From UHGV virus genome UHGV-0008871: a DNA stretch of 47,120 bases. One strand, given 5' to 3'. The notes below the pieces were generated by a model. It saw only the letters and a program-made list of their open reading frames with translations, had not been told where the DNA came from and did no database searches. This DNA comes from a virus. Numbering within the stretch: position 1 is the first letter of the stretch; each line of letters opens with the position of its first letter. Both the position numbers and the translations under genes were made by a program. Shown in pieces: positions 4,124 through 44,426 of this stretch.

Positions 4124-4794
4124 TGCTCCCCAAATACAAAACCAATTTCAGCCAGTGCCTCGTCCATTTTTTCGATGAACTCCGGCACCATCTCGTCAAA
4201 ACTCGCCATGTACTTTTCATCCCGCTCAACCACGACATAATGCAGGCCTTCACGCTTCATACGCGGGTCATAGTTGGCAAAGTACCAGGCATCTTTTCGC
4301 GTCACCCACATGCTGTACTGCACCTGGGCCATGTAAGCCGACTTTATGGCCTCGAAACCACCGAGCCGGAACTTCATGAAATCCCGGGAGGTAAACGGGC
4401 ATTTCAGCTCAAGGCCATTGCCGTCACTGCATAAACCATCGGGAGAGCAGGCGGTGCGCATACTTTCGTCGCGATAGATGATCGGGGATTCAGTAACATT
4501 CACGCCGGAAGTGAATTCAAACAGGGTTCTGGCGTCGTTCTCGTACTGTTTTCCCCAGGCCAGCGCCTTAGCATTAACTTCCGGAGCCACACCGGTGCAA
4601 ACCTCAGCCAGCAGGGTGTGGAAGTAGGACATTTTCATGTCAGGCCACTTCTTTCCTGAGCGGGGCTTTGCTATCACGTTGTGAACTTCTGAAGCGGTGA
4701 TGACGCCGAGCCGTAATTTGTGCCATGCATCATCCCCCTGTTCGACAGCTCTCACGTCGATCCCGGTACGCTGCAGGATAATGTCCGATGTCAT
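4114..4794 (-). CDS. exo: Lambda exonuclease (Red alpha), 226 aa
   Basis: Near residue-for-residue match to recalled lambda Exo (…[53 protein letters not shown]…GEQWR); ATGA-type overlap with bet. Confidence 0.95.
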
Positions 4795-12951: not shown

Positions 12952-13129
12952 TCCATCCCAATCTCTTCAATACCAGAAAGAAAGCGTCGAGCGGGCTTTA
13001 ACGTGCGCTAACTGCGGTCAGAAGCTGCATGTGCTGGAAGTTCACGTGTGTGAGCGTTGTATATATGAATGCTTAAATATGGTGGAACATAATGAGAAAT
13101 ATAAGCAACATAGACGAATTAAGAAATAA
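12944..13129 (+). pseudogene. ninF: ninF disrupted: first 37 codons of NinF fused to a foreign AT-rich C-terminal tail
   Basis: [37 protein letters not shown] matches recalled lambda NinF, then diverges; the missing NinF C-terminus (…[19 protein letters not shown]) is encoded at 13597-13659 in another frame. Confidence 0.6.
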
Positions 13130-13598
13130 ATTATCATATGATGATGTTTTAGGTGTACTTAGATGGAAAGTGTCTCCTTCTAATAATGTTAAGGTTGGCA
13201 GTGTTGCTGGTTACATTAGGAGTGATGGTTATAGGATGTTAACTATCGATGGTGTAATTACTTATGCTCACCACGTTATATGGATGATAAATAATGGTGA
13301 GATTCCATTAGGGTATAAAATTGATCATATAAATGGAGTAAGGTCAGATAATAGGCTATCTAATCTTCGATTGGTTACACACCAACAGAATGCACAGAAC
13401 CAAAAGAGAAAAATAACCAATTCGTCAGGAGTGACTGGAGTATATTTCAATAAAGAGAGATGTAAGTGGATTGCGAATATATGCGTAGATGGGCGCACCA
13501 AATATCTTGGAATATTTGCTAGCATCATTGACGCTATTGCAGAAAGGAAGAGGGCAGAAAAAGAACTGGGTTTTCATGAAAACCATGGTAGACCATAA
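13092..13598 (+). CDS. HNH-family endonuclease, homing-endonuclease-like (168 aa)
   Basis: HNH motif IDHINGVRSDNRLSNLRLVTHQQN; markedly AT-rich relative to neighbours; sits inside ninF. Confidence 0.75.
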   Translation: MRNISNIDELRNKLSYDDVLGVLRWKVSPSNNVKVGSVAGYIRSDGYRMLTIDGVITYAHHVIWMINNGEIPLGYKIDHINGVRSDNRLSNLRLVTHQQNAQNQKRKITNSSGVTGVYFNKERCKWIANICVDGRTKYLGIFASIIDAIAERKRAEKELGFHENHGRP

Positions 13599-15502: not shown

Positions 15503-15577
15503 GGGTCAGTCGTATAAAGGTCATTACGGAAGGCTGTTAACCTTCTTATCGTGGTTCGAGTCCACGCTGTCCCGCCA
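15503..15577 (+). tRNA. Phage-encoded tRNA, anticodon GUU (Asn) by manual fold; slightly non-canonical
   Basis: Hand-folded cloverleaf: acceptor gggtcag/ctgtccc (one mismatch), anticodon stem gaagg/ccttc, loop ctGTTaa, T-arm cgtgg-ttcgagt-ccacg, CCA encoded; D-stem only 3 bp. Confidence 0.5.
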
Positions 15578-15582
15578 AACAT

Positions 15583-15658
15583 GCTGTTTTAGCTCCAATG
15601 GTAGAGCGGTCGCCTTGTAAGCGAATGGGTAGCGGTTCAAGTCCGTTAAACAGCACCA
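15583..15658 (+). tRNA. Phage-encoded tRNA, anticodon UGU (Thr) by manual fold
   Basis: Perfect 7-bp acceptor gctgttt/aaacagc, D-stem gctc/gagc, anticodon loop ctTGTaa, T-loop ttcaagt, CCA encoded. Confidence 0.65.
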
Positions 15659-15900: not shown

Positions 15901-16224
15901 ATGAAGATGCCAGAAAAACATGACCTGTTAGCCGCCATTCTCGCGGCAAAGGAACAAGGCATCGGGGCAATCCTTGCGTTTGCAATGGCGTACCTTCGCG
16001 GCAGATATAATGGCGGTGCGTTTACAAAAACAGTAATCGACGCAACGATGTGCGCCATTATCGCCTGGTTCATTCGTGACCTTCTCGACTTCGCCGGACT
16101 AAGTAGCAATCTCGCTTATATAACGAGCGTGTTCATCGGCTACATCGGTACTGACTCGATTGGTTCGCTTATCAAACGCTTCGCTGCTAAAAAAGCCGGA
16201 GTAGAAGATGGTGGAAATCAATAA
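15901..16224 (+). CDS. S: Lambda S holin/antiholin (S107 with dual-start Met1-Lys2-Met3)
   Basis: [67 protein letters not shown]… matches recalled lambda S; upstream hairpin ccccttattgggg at 15881-15893. Confidence 0.95.
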
Positions 16225-16684
16225 TCAACGTAAGGCGTTCCTCGATATGCTGGCGTGGTCAGAGGGAACTGATAACGGACGGCAGAAAACCAGAAATCAT
16301 GGTTATGACGTCATTGTTGGCGGAGAGCTATTCACTGATTACTCCGATCACCCTCGCAAACTTGTCACGCTAAACCCCAAACTCAAATCAACAGCCGCCG
16401 GACGCTACCAGCTTCTTTCCCGTTGGTGGGATGCCTACCGCAAGCAGCTTGGCCTGAAAGACTTCTCTCCGAAAAGCCAGGACGCTGTGGCACTGCAACA
16501 GATTAAAGAGCGTGGCGCTTTACCGATGATTGATCGCGGTGATATTCGTCAGGCTATCGACCGTTGCAGCAATATCTGGGCTTCACTGCCGGGGGCTGGT
16601 TATGGTCAGTTCGAGCATAAGGCTGACAGCCTGATTGCAAAATTCAAAGAAGCTGGCGGAACGGTCAGAGAGATTGAGGTATGA
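16208..16684 (+). CDS. R: Lambda R endolysin (lytic transglycosylase), 158 aa
   Basis: [51 protein letters not shown]… matches recalled lambda R. Confidence 0.95.
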
Positions 16685-17139
16685 GCAGAGTAACCGCGAT
16701 TATCTCCGCTCTGGTTATCTGCATCATCGTCTGCCTGTCATGGGCTGTTAATCATTACCGTGATAACGCAATCGCCTACAAAGAGCAGCGCGATAACAAG
16801 GCCAGTGAACTGGAGAAGGCGAACGCCACCATCGCTGACATGCGGAAGCGTCAACGTGATGTAGCAGAACTCGACACAAGATACACAAAGGAGCTTGCTG
16901 ATGCTAACGCGACTATCGAAAGTCTCCGTGCTGATGTTTCTGCTGGGCGTAAGCGCCTGCAAGTCGCCACCACCTGTGCAAAGTCAACGACCGGAGCCGG
17001 CGGCATGGGCGATGGAGAAAGTCCAGGACTTACAGCAGATGCTGAACTCAATTATTACCGTCTCCGAAGTGGAATCGACAAGATAACCGCACAGGTCAAC
17101 TACCTGCAGGAATACATCAGGGCGCAATGCCTGAAATAA
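16681..17139 (+). CDS. Rz: Rz inner-membrane spanin subunit (152 aa)
   Basis: N-terminal TM segment ([18 protein letters not shown]) plus coiled-coil; lambda Rz-like. Confidence 0.9.
16895..17086 (+). CDS. Rz1: Rz1 outer-membrane lipoprotein spanin, embedded in the +1 frame of Rz (start uncertain)
   Basis: Lipobox LLGVSAC followed by a Pro-rich mature region ([13 protein letters not shown]), fully inside Rz. Confidence 0.75.
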
Positions 17140-22256: not shown

Positions 22257-23870
22257 GTGGCTATTTTTGGCAGCGGGATAATGTTCCGTCAGGGGAAGTT
22301 CGTCTTCCTGATCCAGCGCTCGGATGATGGCACATGGTGCCAGCCGGGCGGGACGATAGAGCCGGGAGAGTTAGCCATAGACGCCGCACGGCGCGAGGTG
22401 CTGGAGGAAACAGGCTATCAGTACGATGGCCCGCTGACGCCGCACAGCGTACATGGTGACTACCTGACCTACCGCGCCGACGTGCCGGAGCAATTCGAAG
22501 CGAAGATAAACGACGAATCGCTGGCCGCCGGATGGTTCCATATTGAAGATCTGCCAAAGCCGCTTCATCAGCCATTCGCTGAAATGCTGGCGCAGCAGGC
22601 GCTCAACGAAACCGACGTGGCCGCGCTCATCGCTGACGGAACGCTCAGCAGCCCGCAATATTTTTACAACATGTGGATGTTCGCCATCCGGGTGACCGGA
22701 ACAGGGGTTACCTGGCGATCTGCAGATCAGGAGATGACGTTCCGTAACCCGGACGACTATCTCACCCCTGAATTTCTCCAGCGGGTAGCTGGCGTACCAC
22801 TTATCTGGCTTCACCCCGAAAAAAGAACACTTGATAGCGACGAGTTCTCAAAGCGCGTTATTGGCACCCTGACAAATGCCTGGGTTGCCGATAAGGGCGA
22901 AGTGTGGGCCGTTGCGCGTGTGTACGACGCCGAAGCTGCTGAAATTATGGCAACAAGGCAATTAAGCACCTCGCCAACTGTGAAGTTCTCAGAGGTTGCT
23001 CAATCAATCATTGTCGACGGTCAGCCTCTACTGGTGGAGCCATCCCCCGAGCTGCTCGACCACGTTGCAATTTGTGAACAGGGCGTGTGGGACAAGCTCC
23101 TTGCCCCTACCGGTGTTAAATCTGATTCCATTCCTGAAGAGGCTGAAAAGATGGACGAGGAAAAAATCGTAGCGCTGATTAATAAGGCGATCGATGCGCG
23201 TTTGGCTAAGGCCGACGAAGAGAAGGAAGCGAAAGCCAAGGCTGACGCCGAAGAGGCCGCCAAGAAAGAAAAGGCTGACGCAGAAGACAAAGAAGCGGAA
23301 GAGGCGAAAGCTAAAGCCGACGCGGAAGAGAAAGCCGCGAAGGAAAAAGCTGATGCTGAAGCCAAAGAAAAGGCGGATGCCGAAGAGGCTGAGAAAATGG
23401 CAAAAGAAAAAGCCGACTCTCAAATCCTCCAGGAAATTGCTGAGCTTCGCTCCCGCATTCCTACCGAACTGAGCGACGAAGAGCGCAACGAAGTTGCAGA
23501 AGCGCAGGTGAAAGCCGATAGCGTCTTCTCCAGCTTTGGCAAACGCGCCCCGATCCCGCTGTCCGGTGAAAAACCGATGGCGTATCGCCGCCGTCTGATG
23601 ATTCAACTGCAGGAGCATTCTCCGGACTACAAAGCCGTCGATCTCTCTGCCATCGCTGATTCTCAACTGCTGAGCACTGCCGAAAAGCATATCTACGCTG
23701 ATGCGCAGAAGGCGGCCAGCCTGTCAGTTGGTCCCGGTATGCTGCGCGAGATTAAGCGCGCCGATGCAACCGGTCGCCAGATCAGCACCTTTGAAGGCGA
23801 TCCCGCCGTCACCTGGGCGCCGTTCCAGTCTGGCAAGCGTCAGGTCACCAGTTTTAACAACCAGGCTTAA
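22257..23870 (+). CDS. Head scaffold-like protein with N-terminal Nudix hydrolase domain and internal Lys/Ala/Glu/Asp-rich repeat region (537 aa)
   Basis: Canonical Nudix box [23 protein letters not shown] (GX5EX7REUXEEXGU) at residues ~30-53; KADAEE-type repeats at residues ~315-380; position between head morphogenesis and capsid genes. Confidence 0.6.
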
Positions 23871-36958: not shown

Positions 36959-37663
36959 ATGCTGGACGATATCATCCGGTCGTATATGTATACGCAATAC
37001 AACGACGATGAAAATCTGCGGGCGTTTTTTACTGCGTATAACTCGATGGCGCAGGGCATTTATGACTGGATGGTTAATGCCAACCTGCCGATTTTCATCG
37101 GTGACTACAACACCGGAGATCAGCTCCGGTGGATTGCCCATGGCATCTATGGCGTTTTGCCGCCGGTGATTTCCAGCAGCGATCAGCAGGAGATAGGCCC
37201 ATATAACACCTTCGAATTTAACCAGCTGGCATTCAATGAGTACCGGGTGATTGACCAGTCAAACCAGGTTGTTGTCTCTGATGACCTTTTTAAGCGGATC
37301 ATGACCTGGAATTTTTACAAAGGTGACGGCTTCTATTTCTCTATCCCATGGATAAAGCGGCGTATTCTGCGGTTCCTTTTGGGAGTGAATGGCACCGACA
37401 TTCTCAACGACCAGCGATGGAGTATCTCGATCCAGTTTGTGGATGGCGGTATCGTGATTTCCATCTATAAAGGGCGCCGCATGTTCACGCGGAGCGCTAT
37501 CTACAATGCATCGGCCTATAACTCCAGGAAGTACAACCAGAAGGACACGGCCTTTGTGATCACTGAGGATTTCGAGTTCGCCATTTTTTTCAAGCAGGCC
37601 ATGGATAGCGGCCTGCTGCACATGCCGTTTTACCAGTCAGTCACGGTTGAGATATTTGATTAG
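36959..37663 (+). CDS. Putative baseplate/tail-fibre attachment protein (234 aa)
   Basis: Last + strand structural ORF before the tail fibre. Confidence 0.4.
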   Translation: MLDDIIRSYMYTQYNDDENLRAFFTAYNSMAQGIYDWMVNANLPIFIGDYNTGDQLRWIAHGIYGVLPPVISSSDQQEIGPYNTFEFNQLAFNEYRVIDQSNQVVVSDDLFKRIMTWNFYKGDGFYFSIPWIKRRILRFLLGVNGTDILNDQRWSISIQFVDGGIVISIYKGRRMFTRSAIYNASAYNSRKYNQKDTAFVITEDFEFAIFFKQAMDSGLLHMPFYQSVTVEIFD

Positions 37664-37915
37664 GTTTTTATCTCGATTATCTATTGTTATATACAGATGT
37701 GATTTAACGCTCTGACAAATTATATACAGCACAACTATTGATAAAAACAAAATGGATGACATTTTTATCATATCTATTGGCGGCATTCCTTGCTGAAAAA
37801 GAAATCCAAATAAAATAATAAGCAAGGCGCACGAAAGGAGTATTAATAAAGTAGATAGAGTTCCTAAAAGTATTTTTAAAATAGCAATAGAAGCATTATT
37901 CATAATATTCACCAT
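37637..37915 (-). CDS. Small two-TM membrane protein encoded by an AT-rich reverse-oriented insert in the tail operon (92 aa)
   Basis: Only minus-strand gene within ~25 kb of + strand structural genes; local GC far below flanks; two hydrophobic helices (ILKILLGTLSTLLILLSCALLIILFGFLF and SSILFLSIVVLYIICQSV). Confidence 0.6.
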   Translation of the reverse strand: MVNIMNNASIAILKILLGTLSTLLILLSCALLIILFGFLFQQGMPPIDMIKMSSILFLSIVVLYIICQSVKSHLYITIDNRDKNLIKYLNRD

Positions 37916-37964
37916 TTAAAAGGCCGCGCTTGCGGTTTTTTTATTGCCTAATCCCGGAGGATAC

Positions 37965-40900
37965 ATGGCACTAACCCTTTTGGCTACAAACAACGCAGAA
38001 AGCACGCTGGCTTCTGCTATCAGCGCAACCGACACGTCGCTGATCGTTAGCGCTGGAACTGGTGCCGAGTTCCCTGATGCTGTGGCAGGCGAGAGTTACT
38101 TTAAGCTCACTCTCACCGATGCCGCCACCGGCTCACAGGTTGAGATCGTGAACGTGACAGCTAAGGCCGGAGACATCTTCACGATTGAACGTGCGCAAGA
38201 AGGAACGCTGGCGCGTGCGTGGGCGGCCAACGACATGGTTGCCAACATGATGACGGCGGATACGCTGAACATTATCGCTCAATATGCCCAGCAGGCAGCT
38301 GCATCAGCAGATCAGGCAATTGAGGCTGCTAATAACGCCTCTGAATACGCAAAGAACAAATACACATTCTATAAGACTGCCAGCGATCCTGATGGCACCA
38401 TTGCAGGGTTGGCAGCAACTACTGACGGCCAGTCGTTCTGGGTAGCTCAGGGGCCAGATGCGCTTTCTGCTGCATGGCAGTATCAAAACAATGCTGGCGT
38501 GGCCGTGTTGCAGGCCAAGCAGCCAGGGACAGCGGCCATAACAGGGACAATCCGCGAGTTTCCGACGCTGGCTGCGGCGCAGGCAGACGCAGCTGCGGGT
38601 AATATACCGGTGGGATCAACTGCTTATTATCGCAGCTCAGATGACAATAATCTTTCAATTGAGGTTATCAATACCGCTGGTACGTTGGTAGCAACCGGAA
38701 GAAAAATTCCAGCGTATTCCGCTTTGCGTAGAGGCAACATTTTATTCGACGCATTTAATGAATATTCCTCAAGCCTTTTAACATTCGCTAACTGGGATTG
38801 GTATAAAGGCGCTACGCCAACATTTTCTACTACTGATGTTAATTTGCCGCTTCCAACACCTGTTATTCAAGCTTCTGGTGTAACATCGTTTGATAAATAT
38901 TACGATGTGTCAAAATTACAGGTAAAACCAGGAGACACTTTAGCTTTCTCTGTTTTGGTATGGTTCGAGAACGCTGGAGGCAAGTTACAGATTTATTGGC
39001 TTGATTCAGCAGGAGTAACCATCACTACAGGGGAGGCCTCTCCACTGGTTGCTGGTATATCTTCGCCGGTTGTGGTCATTGCTGTGCCATCTGGCGCATC
39101 ATCCATACGAATTCGGGTGCAAAACACTGTGTCAGGGGCGTTCAAAATCGGTGCCTATGCCGCAGCTATTGGTGATGTTACTCCTGAATTCACAAGGTCT
39201 TTCCCTTCAAAAGCGTACCAGGAGGCATTGGGTACCCCTGATAACCTCGTGTACGATCCTTTTGGCGAGATGCTTTCCGTTCGCCCTAAGCAAGGACTCC
39301 CAGCAGGCGTGGTTGACGCCATGAGTTACGCAGGAACATTGATTCAGAACAGCGCAAATTCACCATGGGGTAAGACCGGGATCCAAAACACGTCAGGAGT
39401 TGGTGCTGATCGTATTATTTCTCTCAGTTCGATGGGGGTTAAGCCGGGAGACACAATCACTGTCCGTCTGGCTGCATGGTTCGCGTCAACGGGTGGCACG
39501 TTTCAGGTTTTCTGTCGTAATGCATCCGGAGTACTTTCTTCGGCAACTATTGCCGCATCAGCATCCGGCTTTAATGATGGAAGTACCACGCTGACAATAC
39601 CAGCATCAACGACATACCTTACGCTTCGCGCATCAGGGGCTATGGTCAAGGAGCTGGTTGCCATAGGTGTAGCTTTCGGACGATCTCGCCCTGAGTTTAT
39701 TTACGGTAGCCTTCCAGCAGAGTATTCAGGATACCAGCGCCAGCAGATTAACCTGTGGCCTGATCCCTGGTATCGCCGCTACGAGTGCGGGGAAACGTGT
39801 ATTGATGGTTGGGGTCCTGCTCAAGTAGCAGGGGTTTCACTACCAGCATATGTTGCGGATTATTCTGGCAGCCCGTTTCTTAGGAAAAAATCTCTGATTA
39901 TCCCAGTAGGTGGTGGTCAGACGGATATTAACATTTCAGCAAAGCGGCTTGGACTGCGTGCTGGAGATTCGCTGACAGTAGCGCTGGGTGTGGTATCGTC
40001 TCAGGCAATCAACGTGGCAGCATATTTCCGGACGGCTAGCGGGACTGTTATTAGTGACAGTTCGTCTCAGTTGTTCCAGTTCCCAACCCAGCAATATCAG
40101 ACTCTGGTTCGCACAATAGCTATCACCCAGACTATTGTTGATACGGCTGGATATCTGCAAATCCGCCTTATGAATGGGCAGACTGTTGGCGCTGCAGGTG
40201 TTTATGTTGTTGCCAGGGGGCTCTTTGTTGGGAATGGCTCTCCTGTACTGAGTGATGATACGTACCGACAGGATGTCGATTACACAACTTCCAGAGCATT
40301 CACGTTAAATCAGGATTCACTCAGAGAGACACATAAGCGCCTGATGAACAGGCGGCTTTCTCAGTCAGCAACACTGGTAACAGCGCACATTGGCGATAGC
40401 TGGACTCACCTGTGGAACCGATGGAGCGGAATTTTTGCCGGAAAAATGCAGGCTGACTATGGCAGTGCAGGTATCGGCTATATCGGATTTGGCTATCCGT
40501 CTGAGGCGGGTTTCGGGCAGTATAACGGCAATATACTTGGTCAGATAACTTTGACCAAAACAGGAACATGGACGCCGACATATGCGGCAGCACAGAGCGC
40601 AGATATTTGTAGCGTCTCGTCTTCTGATACCACCGCTACTTTCAGGGCGAACGGTATACCGGCAAATGCATCGTCAGTCCGCCTTTTTGCTAAACCTCAG
40701 GGGAGTGTTAAATACAGCACAGATGGTGGAGTTAACTGGACAACTATCGACCTGAGCACGTTCACTGACCTTGCGGTTGTCAGCCTCACGGTACCGGCAA
40801 CAGCTTTCAATATCTGGTTCAGTCCGGTATCAGGAACCGTTGAACTGTACGGTCTGGATGTGCAGACCGCGACAGATGGTGTCCGGTCTCACAAGCTGGG

Positions 40901-41354
40901 TGCGACGGGGAGTTCTGCTCAACAATGGGCGGCGCAGGTTACCAGCGCAACATGGAAAGCAGCATTCACCGCGCTGGCCCCCAATCTGGTGACAATTCTG
41001 CATGGGACCAATGACCAGACATCATCCCGTGATCCATCCGCGTTTGCTGCCGATATTCAGACGATAATCACAGCAGTTCGCACTGCATGCCCGTTGGCTG
41101 ATGTTCTGGTGATCATGCCATGTGAAAACCAGAGGAATAACAATGTGGCAATGGCGGCGTATGCGTCTGTTGTACGGGATGTTTGTGCGCTAAACAGGGT
41201 GGCTTATCACAATCTCCAGATTGACTACGGAGACAAGCCATCTGATTACGCATCGACATCTCCACGCAACTGGTTCAATGCTGATGGAATCCATCCTGAC
41301 CCTGCAACTGGAGGTGGGCTGCCGATCGTTTCTGCTGTTTTGAAGTTAATGTAA
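37965..41354 (+). CDS. Long tail fibre: conserved N-terminal anchor domain, three internal ~110-aa repeats, C-terminal SGNH/GDSL-type esterase-like domain (1129 aa from Met at 37965)
   Basis: RBS ggagg before ATG 37965; SGNH blocks HIGDSWT, HGTND and DGIHPD in the last ~330 aa; N-terminus homologous to the second fibre. Confidence 0.75.
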   Translation: MALTLLATNNAESTLASAISATDTSLIVSAGTGAEFPDAVAGESYFKLTLTDAATGSQVEIVNVTAKAGDIFTIERAQEGTLARAWAANDMVANMMTADTLNIIAQYAQQAAASADQAIEAANNASEYAKNKYTFYKTASDPDGTIAGLAATTDGQSFWVAQGPDALSAAWQYQNNAGVAVLQAKQPGTAAITGTIREFPTLAAAQADAAAGNIPVGSTAYYRSSDDNNLSIEVINTAGTLVATGRKIPAYSALRRGNILFDAFNEYSSSLLTFANWDWYKGATPTFSTTDVNLPLPTPVIQASGVTSFDKYYDVSKLQVKPGDTLAFSVLVWFENAGGKLQIYWLDSAGVTITTGEASPLVAGISSPVVVIAVPSGASSIRIRVQNTVSGAFKIGAYAAAIGDVTPEFTRSFPSKAYQEALGTPDNLVYDPFGEMLSVRPKQGLPAGVVDAMSYAGTLIQNSANSPWGKTGIQNTSGVGADRIISLSSMGVKPGDTITVRLAAWFASTGGTFQVFCRNASGVLSSATIAASASGFNDGSTTLTIPASTTYLTLRASGAMVKELVAIGVAFGRSRPEFIYGSLPAEYSGYQRQQINLWPDPWYRRYECGETCIDGWGPAQVAGVSLPAYVADYSGSPFLRKKSLIIPVGGGQTDINISAKRLGLRAGDSLTVALGVVSSQAINVAAYFRTASGTVISDSSSQLFQFPTQQYQTLVRTIAITQTIVDTAGYLQIRLMNGQTVGAAGVYVVARGLFVGNGSPVLSDDTYRQDVDYTTSRAFTLNQDSLRETHKRLMNRRLSQSATLVTAHIGDSWTHLWNRWSGIFAGKMQADYGSAGIGYIGFGYPSEAGFGQYNGNILGQITLTKTGTWTPTYAAAQSADICSVSSSDTTATFRANGIPANASSVRLFAKPQGSVKYSTDGGVNWTTIDLSTFTDLAVVSLTVPATAFNIWFSPVSGTVELYGLDVQTATDGVRSHKLGATGSSAQQWAAQVTSATWKAAFTALAPNLVTILHGTNDQTSSRDPSAFAADIQTIITAVRTACPLADVLVIMPCENQRNNNVAMAAYASVVRDVCALNRVAYHNLQIDYGDKPSDYASTSPRNWFNADGIHPDPATGGGLPIVSAVLKLM

Positions 41355-43029: not shown

Positions 43030-44226
43030 TTACACTCCTGCACGACCATCGATGTAATCAGCCCACCATTGCATCATTTCTCTGCGCTTATCGAGATACT
43101 GAGCATGGTTGTAAATTCCACGTACAGATCCGCCGTTGGCATGTGCCAGCTGCACTTCAATAGCGTCAGCAGGCCATTCGTGCTCGTTCATAATCGTGCT
43201 GAATTCATGCCTGAATCCGTGACCGCTTTCCAGACCTTCATAGCCGATTTGTTTGATCACAAGCAATACCGCGTTCTCGCAGATTGGCTTCTTCTTATCG
43301 TTGCGCCCGGCAAAAACAAACTCTGAGACTGGTTTGGTGATTGAGCTTAGCGTAGTGAGAAGTTCAACCACCTGGTCTGACATCGGGACCACATGAATTT
43401 TGCGTCCCTTCATCACACTGGCGTCGATGGTGATAATCCTGTTTTCAAAATCGACGTTCTTCCATAGCATGGAACGAAGCTCTTTTGTTCTTAGGGCTGT
43501 GTAGCGTAAAACTTTGGTCGCAATGAGCGATACGATACTTCCTGAAAATGTTGCAAGTGCTTTGTTGAATGCCGGGATCTGGTCGGCAGGTAAAAACGGG
43601 AAGTTCTTCTTGCGGTATCCCTTCATGGCGTCAGCAAGGTCAGGTGCCGGGTTATATTTAGCCCTACCAGTGACAATAGCGTAACGGAAAACCTCGCCGC
43701 ATCTTCTGCGGGCTTTGTTGGCTCGCTCCATTGCACCGCGATCTTCAAATCTGCGGATTACTTCCAGCAGTTGCATCGGCTCAATATCCTGAATTTCAAG
43801 GCCGCCGATGATAGGTAAAATGTCGTCATCAAACATTTTTGCAAGTTCAGTCGCATACCCTACTGACCATACTTGCTTCTTGTGCTCGTACCATTCCTTG
43901 TAAATCGCACTAAAGGAATTGTTGTTAGACGAAGCCTTTTTCGCCTTTACCGGATCGATGCCAACCGAGATGTCTTTCCTCGCAGTCCATGCCTTATCCC
44001 TTGCTTCCTGCAAAGTCATAAGCGGATATTTTCCGACGGTCAGGATTTTCTCCTTACCGTCAATCTTGTAGCGAAGCTGCCATACCTTTTTCCCTGACAC
44101 AGGGACATAAAGGTACAGGCCATTACCATCGAGAAGGCGGTATGGTTTTTCTTTCGGCTTTGCTGCTTCAATCTGCTTAACGGTGAGCATGGGTAAAAAT
44201 CCGGTGGGTAAAATTATTTTATCCAC
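43030..44226 (-). CDS. intS: Tyrosine integrase, P4/IntS-type (398 aa; alternative start at 44190)
   Basis: Adjacent to the tRNA-Arg gene; catalytic HGFRH…Y region; matches my recollection of E. coli IntS (CPS-53/KplE1). Confidence 0.85.
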   Translation of the reverse strand: MDKIILPTGFLPMLTVKQIEAAKPKEKPYRLLDGNGLYLYVPVSGKKVWQLRYKIDGKEKILTVGKYPLMTLQEARDKAWTARKDISVGIDPVKAKKASSNNNSFSAIYKEWYEHKKQVWSVGYATELAKMFDDDILPIIGGLEIQDIEPMQLLEVIRRFEDRGAMERANKARRRCGEVFRYAIVTGRAKYNPAPDLADAMKGYRKKNFPFLPADQIPAFNKALATFSGSIVSLIATKVLRYTALRTKELRSMLWKNVDFENRIITIDASVMKGRKIHVVPMSDQVVELLTTLSSITKPVSEFVFAGRNDKKKPICENAVLLVIKQIGYEGLESGHGFRHEFSTIMNEHEWPADAIEVQLAHANGGSVRGIYNHAQYLDKRREMMQWWADYIDGRAGV

Positions 44227-44351
44227 TTTTTACCCGTCATGGAGTGCGGCTGTCAACGATCTGACGCGAACCATGACGAACTGTGAATCTACGGGAGGCT
44301 TGATATTCAGGGGATTTTGCGGACTGGTACGGATGGGAGCGAACTGATAAA

Positions 44352-44426
44352 TGGTGTCCCCTGCAGGAATCGAACCTGCAATTAGCCCTTAGGAGGGGCT
44401 CGTTATATCCATTTAACTAAGAGGAC
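44352..44426 (-). tRNA. argW: tRNA-Arg (anticodon CCU), prophage integration target
   Basis: Hand-folded cloverleaf from the minus strand: GTCCTCTTAGTTAAATGGATATAACGAGCCCCTCCTAAGGGCTAATTGCAGGTTCGATTCCTGCAGGGGACACCA; last 15 nt repeated at 442-456. Confidence 0.85.

What the first reader, a model, noticed from the sequence alone, without database searches (positions are those of the whole stretch)
37637..37943. AT-rich, reverse-oriented small membrane-protein gene inserted between baseplate and tail-fibre genes
In ~25 kb of uniformly + strand structural genes, one minus-strand ORF (37637-37915, 92 aa) sits in a ~280-bp block whose GC content is far below the flanks. It encodes two predicted TM helices and a basic C-terminus and has its own hairpin/T-run boundary (ccgc-gctt-gcgg tttttttatt, 37924-37943). 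Composition and orientation mark it as independently acquired cargo. Small membrane proteins at this position in other phages act in superinfection exclusion, abortive infection or membrane-depolarising toxicity (P22 carries sieA near its tailspike), so this is a candidate lysogen-expressed defence or exclusion factor.
Basis: partly seen in the sequence, partly recalled or inferred. Interest (0 to 1): 0.62.

Follow-up and report, generated by a model that had tools for sequence, protein, structure and literature searches.

The report
Small membrane-protein gene beside prophage tailspike
A real but unannotated gene for an 88-residue, two-helix inner-membrane protein sits backwards in an exchangeable cargo slot just before the tailspike gene of an E. 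coli prophage, in the position where phage P22 keeps its superinfection-exclusion gene sieA, so it is a plausible but untested exclusion factor from a new protein family.

Summary
The ORF, the AT-rich block and the two transmembrane helices are real. The block is the lowest-GC 280 bp of the whole window. Only 51 of 20,000 shuffles give an open frame this long.

It is a genuine gene:
- A profile search finds about 110 homologous clusters (82-97 aa) in Enterobacter, Yersinia, Kluyvera, Dickeya and others.
- In every context examined it lies in the same place and orientation: convergent with the 234-aa baseplate-module gene and divergent from the tail-fibre gene.
- dN/dS is 0.08-0.28.

Corrections to the finding:
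- The true start is ATG 37903 (88 aa).
- The last 9 codons run antisense into the neighbouring gene.
- The hairpin/T-run is not the ORF's own. It is a conserved plus-strand terminator of the phage backbone, present even in relatives whose slot is empty.

The slot is a cargo hotspot. Relatives have it empty, or filled with lipoproteins or secreted proteins, or with an Arc/antirepressor module. This matches P22's gene 16-sieA-mnt-arc-ant-terminator-tailspike layout.

The protein has no homology to SieA, T4 Imm, HK97 gp15 or any Pfam, PHROG, PADLOC or PDB entry.

The function, most likely an inner-membrane block of superinfecting phage DNA entry, is inferred and not shown. This lineage also has no recognisable promoter.

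The parts
37637..37903 (-). Gene for an 88-aa two-transmembrane-helix protein (start ATG 37903-37901, stop TGA 37639-37637). It belongs to an uncharacterised Enterobacterales prophage family.
   Evidence: ORF. Homologues align from the second Met. dN/dS is 0.14 against L026 (11 synonymous, 6 non-synonymous, P=2e-4) and 0.08-0.28 across the family. Helical-hairpin model with pLDDT 85.
37904..37915 (-). They are probably 5' UTR and contain the Shine-Dalgarno GGTGA (37913-37909).
   Evidence: Homologues begin MNN/MSN/MKN at the second ATG. SD-like sequences sit at the same distance in relatives. An in-frame TAA lies immediately upstream.
37637..37663 (.). 27-nt convergent overlap. The last 9 codons of the 2-TM gene are the antisense of the last 9 codons of the 234-aa gene.
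   Evidence: Homology to relatives with other cargo breaks exactly at the stop codon of the 234-aa gene. Full-length relatives (97-98 aa) do not overlap and carry a longer basic tail.
37664..37920 (.). AT-rich cargo block (27.6% GC) that fills the variable slot.
   Evidence: It is present in 19 of the 43 E. coli genomes that carry the flanking backbone. The other 24 do not match the cassette, and the ones examined carry other cargo there.
37918..37945 (+). Conserved intrinsic-terminator-like hairpin plus T-run. The stem is 37924-37927 / 37932-37935, extended by G-U and A-U pairs, and the T-run is 37936-37942. It is a backbone element upstream of the tailspike gene.
   Evidence: Present in relatives with any cargo and with empty slots. 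93.9% of cells are paired, against 45-61% in slid controls, and 4 of 6 pairs show compensatory changes. -11.9 kcal/mol on the plus strand versus -6.5 on the minus strand. The scan tool calls it a plus-strand terminator in L072 and L078.
36959..37663 (+). 234-aa baseplate-module gene (follows the Baseplate_J gene; phrog_8212, unknown function). It is the left border of the slot.
   Evidence: Used as the anchor to collect 92 related loci.
37965..41354 (+). Tailspike gene (1129 aa) with RBS GGAGG at 37956-37960, a conserved N-terminal anchor and a C-terminal SGNH/GDSL esterase domain. It is the right border of the slot.

Best explanation
The block is a moron-type accessory gene of a temperate myovirus-like prophage. 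The prophage is related to Klebsiella phages Chronis, RothC and RothD (proposed Felixviridae) and is integrated at argW in E. coli.

The gene encodes an 88-aa inner-membrane protein. Its inferred topology is N-terminus in the cytoplasm, TM1, a short periplasmic loop, TM2, then a charged cytoplasmic helix. The loop carries the family's conserved Q-x-G-x-P-P-(F-E-N)-I-K motif.

The most likely role is superinfection exclusion. On this reading the protein is made from the prophage, independently of the plus-strand late operon. It sits in the inner membrane and interferes with the DNA-delivery step of incoming phages of the same lineage, as P22 SieA, T4 Imm and HK97 gp15 do for their lineages.

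Shown:
- It is a real gene under purifying selection.
- The 2-TM hairpin.
- The slot is exchangeable.
- Its position and orientation match sieA.
- The family is confined to this phage lineage and does not track tail-fibre type.

Inferred:
- Membrane topology.
- Expression in lysogens.
- The exclusion phenotype and its target.
For: 1. It is a real gene. About 110 homologous clusters were found. dN/dS is 0.08-0.28, including within the window's own allele group (P=2e-4).
2. It is dispensable for virion formation. Relatives have an empty slot or other cargo.
3. All seven contexts looked up, plus about 30 slot loci, place it convergent with the 234-aa gene and divergent from the tail-fibre gene. 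These span E. coli, Enterobacter, Yersinia, Dickeya, Kluyvera and Izhakiella. The downstream tail fibres or spikes are unrelated to each other (SGNH, TolB-like, Gp53-like_C plus Caudo_TAP, Gly_rich_2). The gene therefore goes with the phage's baseplate/delivery module, not with receptor specificity. This is the pattern reported for SieA and the P22 ejection proteins (PMC10883804).
4. The slot architecture parallels P22 16-sieA-mnt-arc-ant-terminator-9.
5. Alternative cargo in the same sub-slot is almost always envelope-targeted: lipobox or signal-peptide proteins.
6. Most relatives have a -10 or extended -10 element 25-30 nt upstream of the start codon (TGgTAAAAT, TGaTACAAT, TGcTAAGAT, TATAAT). 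That makes the gene an independent transcription unit on the strand opposite the late genes.
7. In backbones that are 94-95% identical in the 234-aa protein, two alleles only about 50% identical occupy the slot. This fits cassette swapping or arms-race divergence.
Against: - There is no experimental or transcript evidence.
- In the window's lineage (and in the L048/L049 allele) the roughly 30-nt promoter-bearing segment seen in relatives is absent. Only about 25 nt separate the hairpin from the ATG. No sigma-70-like site lies upstream on the minus strand.
- The C-terminal basic tail of the family is truncated here and replaced by read-out into the neighbouring gene.
- The window allele departs from the family consensus at 8 of 18 near-invariant positions.
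- There is no sequence or profile similarity to SieA, Imm or gp15, and no Pfam, PHROG, PADLOC, NCBIfam or PDB family. A helical hairpin is too generic for fold matching.
- Positional analogy is not homology.
Confidence: 0.42

Rival explanations
1. It is a lysogenic-conversion factor acting on the cell surface, not on DNA entry. The small inner-membrane protein would bind a host envelope-biogenesis protein, for example O-antigen or capsule polymerase, chain-length regulator or flippase. This would resemble the small hydrophobic polymerase inhibitors of serotype-converting phages D3 (Iap) and epsilon15 (my own knowledge). The receptor polysaccharide would change and adsorption would be blocked.
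For: The gene lies directly next to a polysaccharide-targeting tailspike with an SGNH/GDSL esterase domain. Other cargo in the slot is envelope-targeted. The best-conserved motif is in the predicted periplasmic loop. P22 keeps its O-antigen conversion genes beside its tailspike too.
Against: The same family, and even the same allele, occurs with unrelated tail fibres and spikes, and in genera with very different surface polysaccharides. That argues against a receptor-specific role. There is no similarity to any known conversion protein.
Confidence: 0.15
2. It is a membrane toxin or effector, in an abortive-infection or addiction role. The 2-TM protein would depolarise or permeabilise the inner membrane when triggered or over-produced.
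For: It is a small hydrophobic 2-TM hairpin with a charged tail. A few family members give sub-threshold hits to 2-TM effector or holin models (Saf_2TM, Phage_holin_2, PycTM, KwaA).
Against: All those hits are weak (E of 0.002 or higher) and are seen in only 1-2 of 43 members, so they look like composition matches. No partner sensor or antitoxin gene exists in the 300-bp slot. At 88 aa with 2 TM it is larger than typical type I toxins. Rfam finds no RNA partner.
Confidence: 0.1
3. It is a lytic-cycle accessory membrane protein, for example a holin/antiholin-like lysis-timing factor or a helper for the phage's own genome entry or assembly at the membrane. On this reading it is not a prophage-expressed function.
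For: Two TM helices plus a charged C-terminus resemble class II holins. The window ORF has two in-frame Met codons four residues apart.
Against: The phage already has a complete lysis cassette elsewhere: S-type holin at 15901-16224 and Rz at 16681-17139. Homologues lack the first Met. The gene opposes the late operon. It is absent from many close relatives, including the plaque-forming phages Chronis and RothC/D.
Confidence: 0.08
4. In this particular lineage the gene is a silent or decaying remnant. It would have lost its promoter and its C-terminal tail and be carried along between two essential genes.
For: There is no promoter-like site. The hairpin abuts the Shine-Dalgarno. The tail is truncated and overlaps the neighbour. 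The allele is the most divergent in the family. PGAP leaves it unannotated in all 19 E. coli genomes.
Against: The frame is intact in every copy. Substitutions within the lineage are strongly biased to synonymous sites (11 versus 6 against L026, P=2e-4). A second allele about 50% identical (L048/L049) keeps the same compact arrangement, which implies long persistence under selection.
Confidence: 0.12

Closest known systems
P22 SieA (superinfection exclusion A; inner-membrane blocker of DNA injection; Leavitt et al. 2024, PMC10883804)
   Same: Both are prophage accessory genes on the strand opposite the virion genes. Both lie immediately after the last virion gene and upstream of the tailspike gene. 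In some relatives both share the slot with an Arc/Mnt-type repressor, an antirepressor and a terminator before the tailspike. Both are integral-membrane proteins, confined to one phage lineage, not present in all members, and found as highly divergent sequence types.
   Different: There is no detectable homology (hhalign probability 0.8%). This protein has 88 aa and 2 TM, against 162-164 aa and 3 TM for SieA. The FxRYPxEAxxFNK motif is absent. The host phage is a contractile-tail type with a Baseplate_J module, not a P22-like podovirus. Function is untested.
T4 Imm (83-aa membrane protein that blocks DNA entry of superinfecting T-even phages)
   Same: Both are very small and predicted to have two membrane-spanning segments. 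T4 Imm is an inner-membrane protein acting at DNA entry (annotation; review PMC11436027).
   Different: No homology (hhalign probability 0.3%). Imm is an early gene of a virulent phage, not prophage cargo beside a tail-fibre gene.
HK97 gp15 moron (62-aa superinfection-exclusion protein between tail genes; Cumby et al. 2012, cited)
   Same: Both are small hydrophobic proteins encoded by an insertion between virion genes of a temperate phage. A terminator lies directly before the next virion gene.
   Different: No homology (hhalign probability 0.1%). gp15 is on the same strand as the tail genes and its terminator is its own. Here the gene is inverted and the terminator belongs to the backbone.
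Receptor-masking lipoproteins linked to tail-fibre genes (T5 Llp; Cor of phi80/N15) and the accessory hotspots beside the tail-fibre genes of P2-like phages (own knowledge; Cor)
   Same: Exclusion or defence cargo clusters next to receptor-binding genes. The alternative occupants of this very slot are lipobox or signal-peptide proteins.
   Different: The window's protein has no signal peptide or lipobox. It is an integral 2-TM protein and does not co-vary with the tail fibre.

Membership tests
P22 SieA family (types A-C) | Sequence homology to SieA, including the conserved cytoplasmic motif FxRYPxEAxxFNK | tested here: not met
   hhalign of the family profile A2 against P22 SieA gives probability 0.8% and E=0.066. 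The motif is absent from alignment A2. The motif definition comes from PMC10883804.
P22 SieA family (types A-C) | Inner-membrane protein of about 160-200 aa with 3-4 TM segments | tested here: not met
   This protein has 88 aa and two hydrophobic helices. Membrane localisation itself cannot be tested here.
P22 SieA family (types A-C) | Located in a prophage between the last virion (ejection) gene and the tailspike gene, on the opposite strand | tested here: met
   The window layout is the 234-aa gene(+) / 2-TM(-) / terminator / tailspike(+). P22 has 16(+) / sieA(-) ... terminator / 9(+). The host phage type differs.
P22 SieA family (types A-C) | Blocks DNA injection of phages of its own lineage without affecting adsorption | not testable with these tools
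   This needs plating, adsorption and DNA-entry assays.
Moron (Juhala/Hendrix sense: independent transcription unit inserted between genes that are adjacent in related phages) | Flanking genes are adjacent in related phages | tested here: met
   Among the 98 related loci, the gap between the 234-aa homologue and the tailspike is 0-142 bp in about 19.
Moron (Juhala/Hendrix sense: independent transcription unit inserted between genes that are adjacent in related phages) | Nucleotide composition distinct from its surroundings | tested here: met
   27.6% GC against 51-53%. All family members are 24-40% GC against 41-50% in their flanks.
Moron (Juhala/Hendrix sense: independent transcription unit inserted between genes that are adjacent in related phages) | Own promoter and own terminator | tested here: inconclusive
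   Relatives have -10 or extended -10 elements 25-30 nt upstream of the ATG. The window lineage has none. No terminator lies downstream of the gene, which runs into the convergent neighbour. The nearby hairpin is a plus-strand backbone element.
T4 Imm | Sequence homology | tested here: not met
   hhalign probability 0.3%.
HK97 gp15 | Sequence homology | tested here: not met
   hhalign probability 0.1%.
Class II holin | Part of the lysis cassette, with a match to a holin family model | tested here: not met
   The lysis cassette is at 15901-17139, with Phage_holin_3_1 and Rz. Only 2 of 43 members give a weak hit (E=0.025) to a holin model.
Pfam TcpE (PF12648) | Score above the gathering threshold, shared by family members | tested here: not met
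   16 bits against a cut-off of 29.9, and only 1 of 43 members hits it.
Known anti-phage defence systems (PADLOC-DB) | Match to a defence-protein model | tested here: not met
   No hit for the window protein. There are scattered hits at E of 0.002 or higher in 1-2 of 43 members.

The most novel reading that the evidence does not exclude
The family is a previously unrecognised type of superinfection-exclusion protein, specific to the recently proposed gut-associated Felixviridae-like temperate phages of Enterobacterales. It would be a minimal 2-TM inner-membrane protein whose conserved periplasmic Q-x-G-x-P-P-F-E-N loop jams the genome-delivery apparatus (tape measure or baseplate hub) of incoming contractile-tailed relatives. 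The slot it occupies would be a dedicated one-of-many exclusion-cassette locus, bounded by the stop codon of the 234-aa gene and a conserved terminator hairpin. That locus would be functionally convergent with the P22 sieA/immI region.
Probability: 0.35. Interest if true: 0.55.

Novelty: new member of a known kind. Interest (0 to 1): 0.4.

Why it matters
If the protein is an exclusion factor, it would be a new, very small tool for studying how contractile-tailed temperate phages cross the inner membrane. It would also help explain phage-phage competition among prophages that are common in gut Enterobacterales, including clinical E. coli and Klebsiella. That bears on host-range prediction for phage therapy.

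Two results hold whatever the function turns out to be. RefSeq annotation misses a conserved, selected gene in all 19 E. coli genomes that carry it. And the slot before the tailspike is a compact, well-delimited cargo hotspot whose alternative occupants (lipoproteins, secreted proteins, an immI-like module) are all uncharacterised candidates for lysogenic conversion.

Tried and rejected
- **Direct word-indexed homology search.** The 92-aa protein found only its own cluster. tblastn against the phage and plasmid collections found nothing, and nor did a consensus-like member against phages. The exhaustive phmmer search was needed to find the family.
- **Family libraries.** Pfam, PHROGs, PADLOC, NCBIfam and PDB sequence searches gave no family-level match. 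TcpE, AmaP, STM3941 and holin hits are sub-threshold and inconsistent across members.
- **Fold search.** Foldseek of the AF2 model against viral structures gave no match at E of 0.001 or better. The remaining fold-search jobs were not spent, because a two-helix hairpin is uninformative.
- **Known sRNA in the block.** Rfam gave only a chance-level csRNA hit, E=0.51, far below its gathering score.
- **Transposon-like insertion.** There are no flanking direct or terminal inverted repeats of note. Homology breaks at the stop codon of the 234-aa gene and at the hairpin, which points to recombination in conserved flanks.
- **Back-translated pattern search.** The search for related loci with the family alignment failed because the alignment was not conserved enough.
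- **Promoter scans.** No canonical -35/-10 site was found upstream of the gene in the window or in relatives. The -10 and extended -10 elements in relatives come from my own reading and script.
- **Co-variation with tailspike type.** Rejected, because the same allele occurs with SGNH and TolB-like spikes.
Full report
**1. What is in the sequence**

A minus-strand ORF runs from 37915 to 37637 (92 codons). It lies in a block of 27.6% GC (37664-37920), between genes of 51-53% GC. This is the lowest-GC 280-bp stretch of the entire 47-kb window.

The surrounding roughly 25 kb is a plus-strand virion operon: terminase, portal, capsid, sheath/tube, tape measure, Baseplate_J, a 234-aa protein and the tailspike. 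Identical DNA in E. coli MEI008 is annotated with plus-strand CDS only.

An open frame of this length arises in only 51 of 20,000 dinucleotide-preserving shuffles of the block.

The protein has two strongly hydrophobic stretches. AlphaFold2, run on a 43-sequence alignment, gives a helical hairpin with helices 3-36 and 42-87 and mean pLDDT 85.

The window is a prophage with its integrase at 43030-44226 next to tRNA-Arg(CCT). Its closest cultured relatives are Klebsiella phages vB_Kpn_Chronis, RothC and RothD. A preprint places these in a proposed family Felixviridae of gut-associated temperate phages (10.1101/2024.12.02.626457).

**2. Is it a real gene?**

NCBI's pipeline leaves the block unannotated in all 19 complete E. 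coli genomes that carry it. A word-indexed search found only the protein's own cluster.

An exhaustive phmmer search of 1.8 billion representatives found seven distant relatives of 70-143 aa. A profile built from them then found about 110 clusters of mostly 82-97 aa. These come from Enterobacter, Yersinia, Kluyvera, Dickeya, Kosakonia, Citrobacter and others, all labelled hypothetical and without Pfam domains.

The relatives start at the window ORF's second Met. The gene is therefore 37637-37903 (88 aa), preceded by GGTGA at the usual Shine-Dalgarno distance. Other members have AAGGAG or GGAG at the same place.

Codon-level comparisons give dN/dS of 0.08-0.28 across many pairs. Within the window's own allele group there are 11 synonymous and 6 non-synonymous differences against L026 (binomial P=2e-4). 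For L065 against L074 the P-value is 3e-12. This is a protein-coding gene under purifying selection.

Invariant or near-invariant residues are K10, G39, P41, K47, K67, D75 and R77. The most conserved motif is Q-E-G-I-P-P-F-E-N-I-K, between the two helices. By the positive-inside rule, this loop faces the periplasm and the charged C-terminal helix faces the cytoplasm. That topology is an inference.

**3. The slot**

I used the 234-aa gene and the conserved tailspike N-terminus as anchors. With them I examined 98 related loci from genomes, viral contigs and GenBank phages. The interval between the two genes falls into three classes:

- Empty (0-142 bp) in about 19 loci, all among the more divergent relatives.
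- 300-390 bp holding a member of this 2-TM family on the minus strand, in about 31 loci.
- 0.5-3 kb holding other cargo.

The other cargo consists mostly of proteins with lipoboxes or signal peptides, of 133-322 aa, on either strand. None has a Pfam match above its family cut-off. Some slots also contain an Arc-like repressor on the minus strand and an ORF6N antirepressor on the plus strand. All slot contents are AT-rich (30-44% GC).

In E. coli, 43 of 5,426 complete genomes carry the backbone junction. Of these, 19 have this cassette. The other 24 do not match it, and the ones examined carry something else.

Homology between loci with different cargo breaks exactly at the stop codon of the 234-aa gene on the left, and at a hairpin on the right. 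There are no transposon-like repeats. Exchange by recombination in the conserved flanks is therefore the simplest mechanism, though this too is an inference.

**4. The hairpin is not the ORF's own**

The hairpin, the T-run and the RBS form a conserved unit directly before the tailspike ATG. The consensus is AACCCGCTTCGGCGGGTTTTTTTATGCC..GGAGGA. The unit is present whatever the cargo, and also in empty-slot phages, where it follows the 234-aa gene by about 20 nt.

The stem co-varies (CCCGC/GCGGG, CCCAC/GTGGG, CCTCGC/GCGGGG, CCGC/GCGG). 93.9% of cells pair, against 45-61% when the partner column is slid. Four of six pairs show double changes.

In the window the stem uses G-U pairs. These exist only in the plus-strand RNA: -11.9 kcal/mol, against -6.5 kcal/mol (no better than shuffles) for the minus strand. 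The scan tool calls the equivalent element a plus-strand terminator in L072 and L078.

It lies 5' of the minus-strand gene. It is a backbone terminator-like element at the same place as the terminator between ant and gene 9 in P22.

**5. Peculiarities of the window's allele**

- Its last nine codons (37637-37663) are the antisense of the end of the 234-aa gene.
- Full-length relatives stop just outside that gene and carry a 10-15-residue longer, lysine/arginine-rich tail. The tail here is truncated and replaced.
- In most relatives a -10 or extended -10 element sits 25-30 nt upstream of the ATG, between the hairpin and the Shine-Dalgarno. Examples are TGgTAAAAT, TGaTACAAT, TGcTAAGAT and TATAAT.
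- In the window lineage, and in a second allele about 50% identical (L048/L049), that segment is missing. The hairpin abuts the Shine-Dalgarno and no sigma-70-like site is found upstream.
- The window allele also differs from consensus at 8 of 18 near-invariant positions.

Even so, the frame is intact in all copies and evolves under constraint. It must be expressed somehow, and how is unresolved.

**6. What it probably does**

The gene is dispensable for making phage. It opposes the late operon. It encodes an integral-membrane hairpin. In every context examined it belongs to one phage lineage, and always at one position. It is independent of the type of tail fibre that follows: SGNH spike, TolB-like spike, Gp53-like fibre with chaperone, or glycine-rich fibre.

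The slot's full form in some relatives mirrors P22 almost gene for gene: the 234-aa gene(+) / 2-TM(-) / Arc-like(-) / antirepressor(+) / terminator / tailspike(+). P22 has 16(+) / sieA(-) / mnt(-) / arc-ant(+) / terminator / 9(+).

[quoted passage not shown] It is found only in P22-like prophages, at that position. It comes in sequence types less than 30% identical, and it interacts genetically with the ejection proteins rather than with the tailspike (PMC10883804).

The present family shows the same pattern of lineage restriction, position, dispensability and divergence. I therefore rate an inner-membrane block of genome entry by related phages as the most likely function (about 0.4).

The rivals are surface conversion through a host envelope-biogenesis protein, a membrane toxin or Abi effector, a lytic-cycle membrane helper, and a silent remnant in this lineage. 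Each is weighed in the rival explanations. The phage has a separate complete lysis cassette, which argues against a holin role.

**7. Comparison with known families**

Profile comparisons with P22 SieA, T4 Imm and HK97 gp15 are negative, with probabilities of 0.8%, 0.3% and 0.1%. No Pfam, PHROG, PADLOC, NCBIfam or PDB family matches consistently. Foldseek against viral models is uninformative.

The protein is therefore not a member of any described exclusion family. It is a new, uncharacterised family that sits where an exclusion gene sits in another phage group.

**8. Verdict**

Two points weaken it. The cassette is an old resident of this phage lineage, not a fresh acquisition. And the window's lineage has no recognisable promoter.

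It is a new member of a known kind, of moderate interest.

Noticed in passing
L002 3310-3834(+); L003 4308-5000(+); L007 4762-5223(+); L004 4276-4677(-); L053 4763-5395(+); L063 4750-5313(+): Alternative occupants of the same slot in close relatives are uncharacterised lipoproteins (lipoboxes LSSGC, LVGC, IAGC) or signal-peptide proteins of 133-254 aa. None has a Pfam match above its family cut-off. They are candidates for receptor masking or lysogenic conversion.
   Followed up: partly
L070 5055-5408(-) and 5584-7172(+); also L073 and L080: Some relatives carry an Arc-like ribbon-helix-helix repressor gene and an ORF6N-domain antirepressor gene in the slot. A second copy of the terminator hairpin is present. 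This is a P22 immI-like module in a contractile-tail phage lineage.
   Followed up: partly
L004 (Klebsiella phage RothC, PP934563) 4276-4677(-): The GenBank record annotates three tiny minus-strand ORFs (31-43 aa) where a single 133-aa ORF with a clear signal peptide fits. This is probably a mis-annotation.
   Followed up: partly
window 13092-13598 (+): A 168-aa HNH_3 endonuclease gene lies in a second AT-rich block (33-37% GC) among the early or regulatory genes. It may be a homing-endonuclease-type insertion.
   Followed up: partly
window 15503-15658 (+): Two phage-borne tRNA genes (Asn-GTT, Thr-TGT) lie just upstream of the lysis cassette (S-type holin at 15901-16224, Rz at 16681-17139).
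   Followed up: no
window 22257-23870 (+): A 537-aa head-module protein combines an N-terminal NUDIX hydrolase domain with DUF2213. This is an unusual fusion in a virion gene cluster.
   Followed up: no
window 37965-41354 (+), especially 38600-39000: The tailspike has a conserved N-terminal anchor of about 120 aa, then a dip to about 39% GC. It ends in a C-terminal SGNH/GDSL esterase domain (aa 973-1114). Relatives with the same 2-TM allele carry quite different spikes (for example TolB-like), so the gene looks mosaic. PGAP annotates this ORF as a pseudogene plus a fragment in MEI008, although it is one open frame in the window.
   Followed up: partly
window 43030-44426; L005 and L006 right ends: The prophage in the window sits at tRNA-Arg(CCT) (argW) with an IntS-type integrase. 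Relatives with the same virion module and 2-TM allele sit next to ybhB/bioA instead, so the integration module has been swapped.
   Followed up: no
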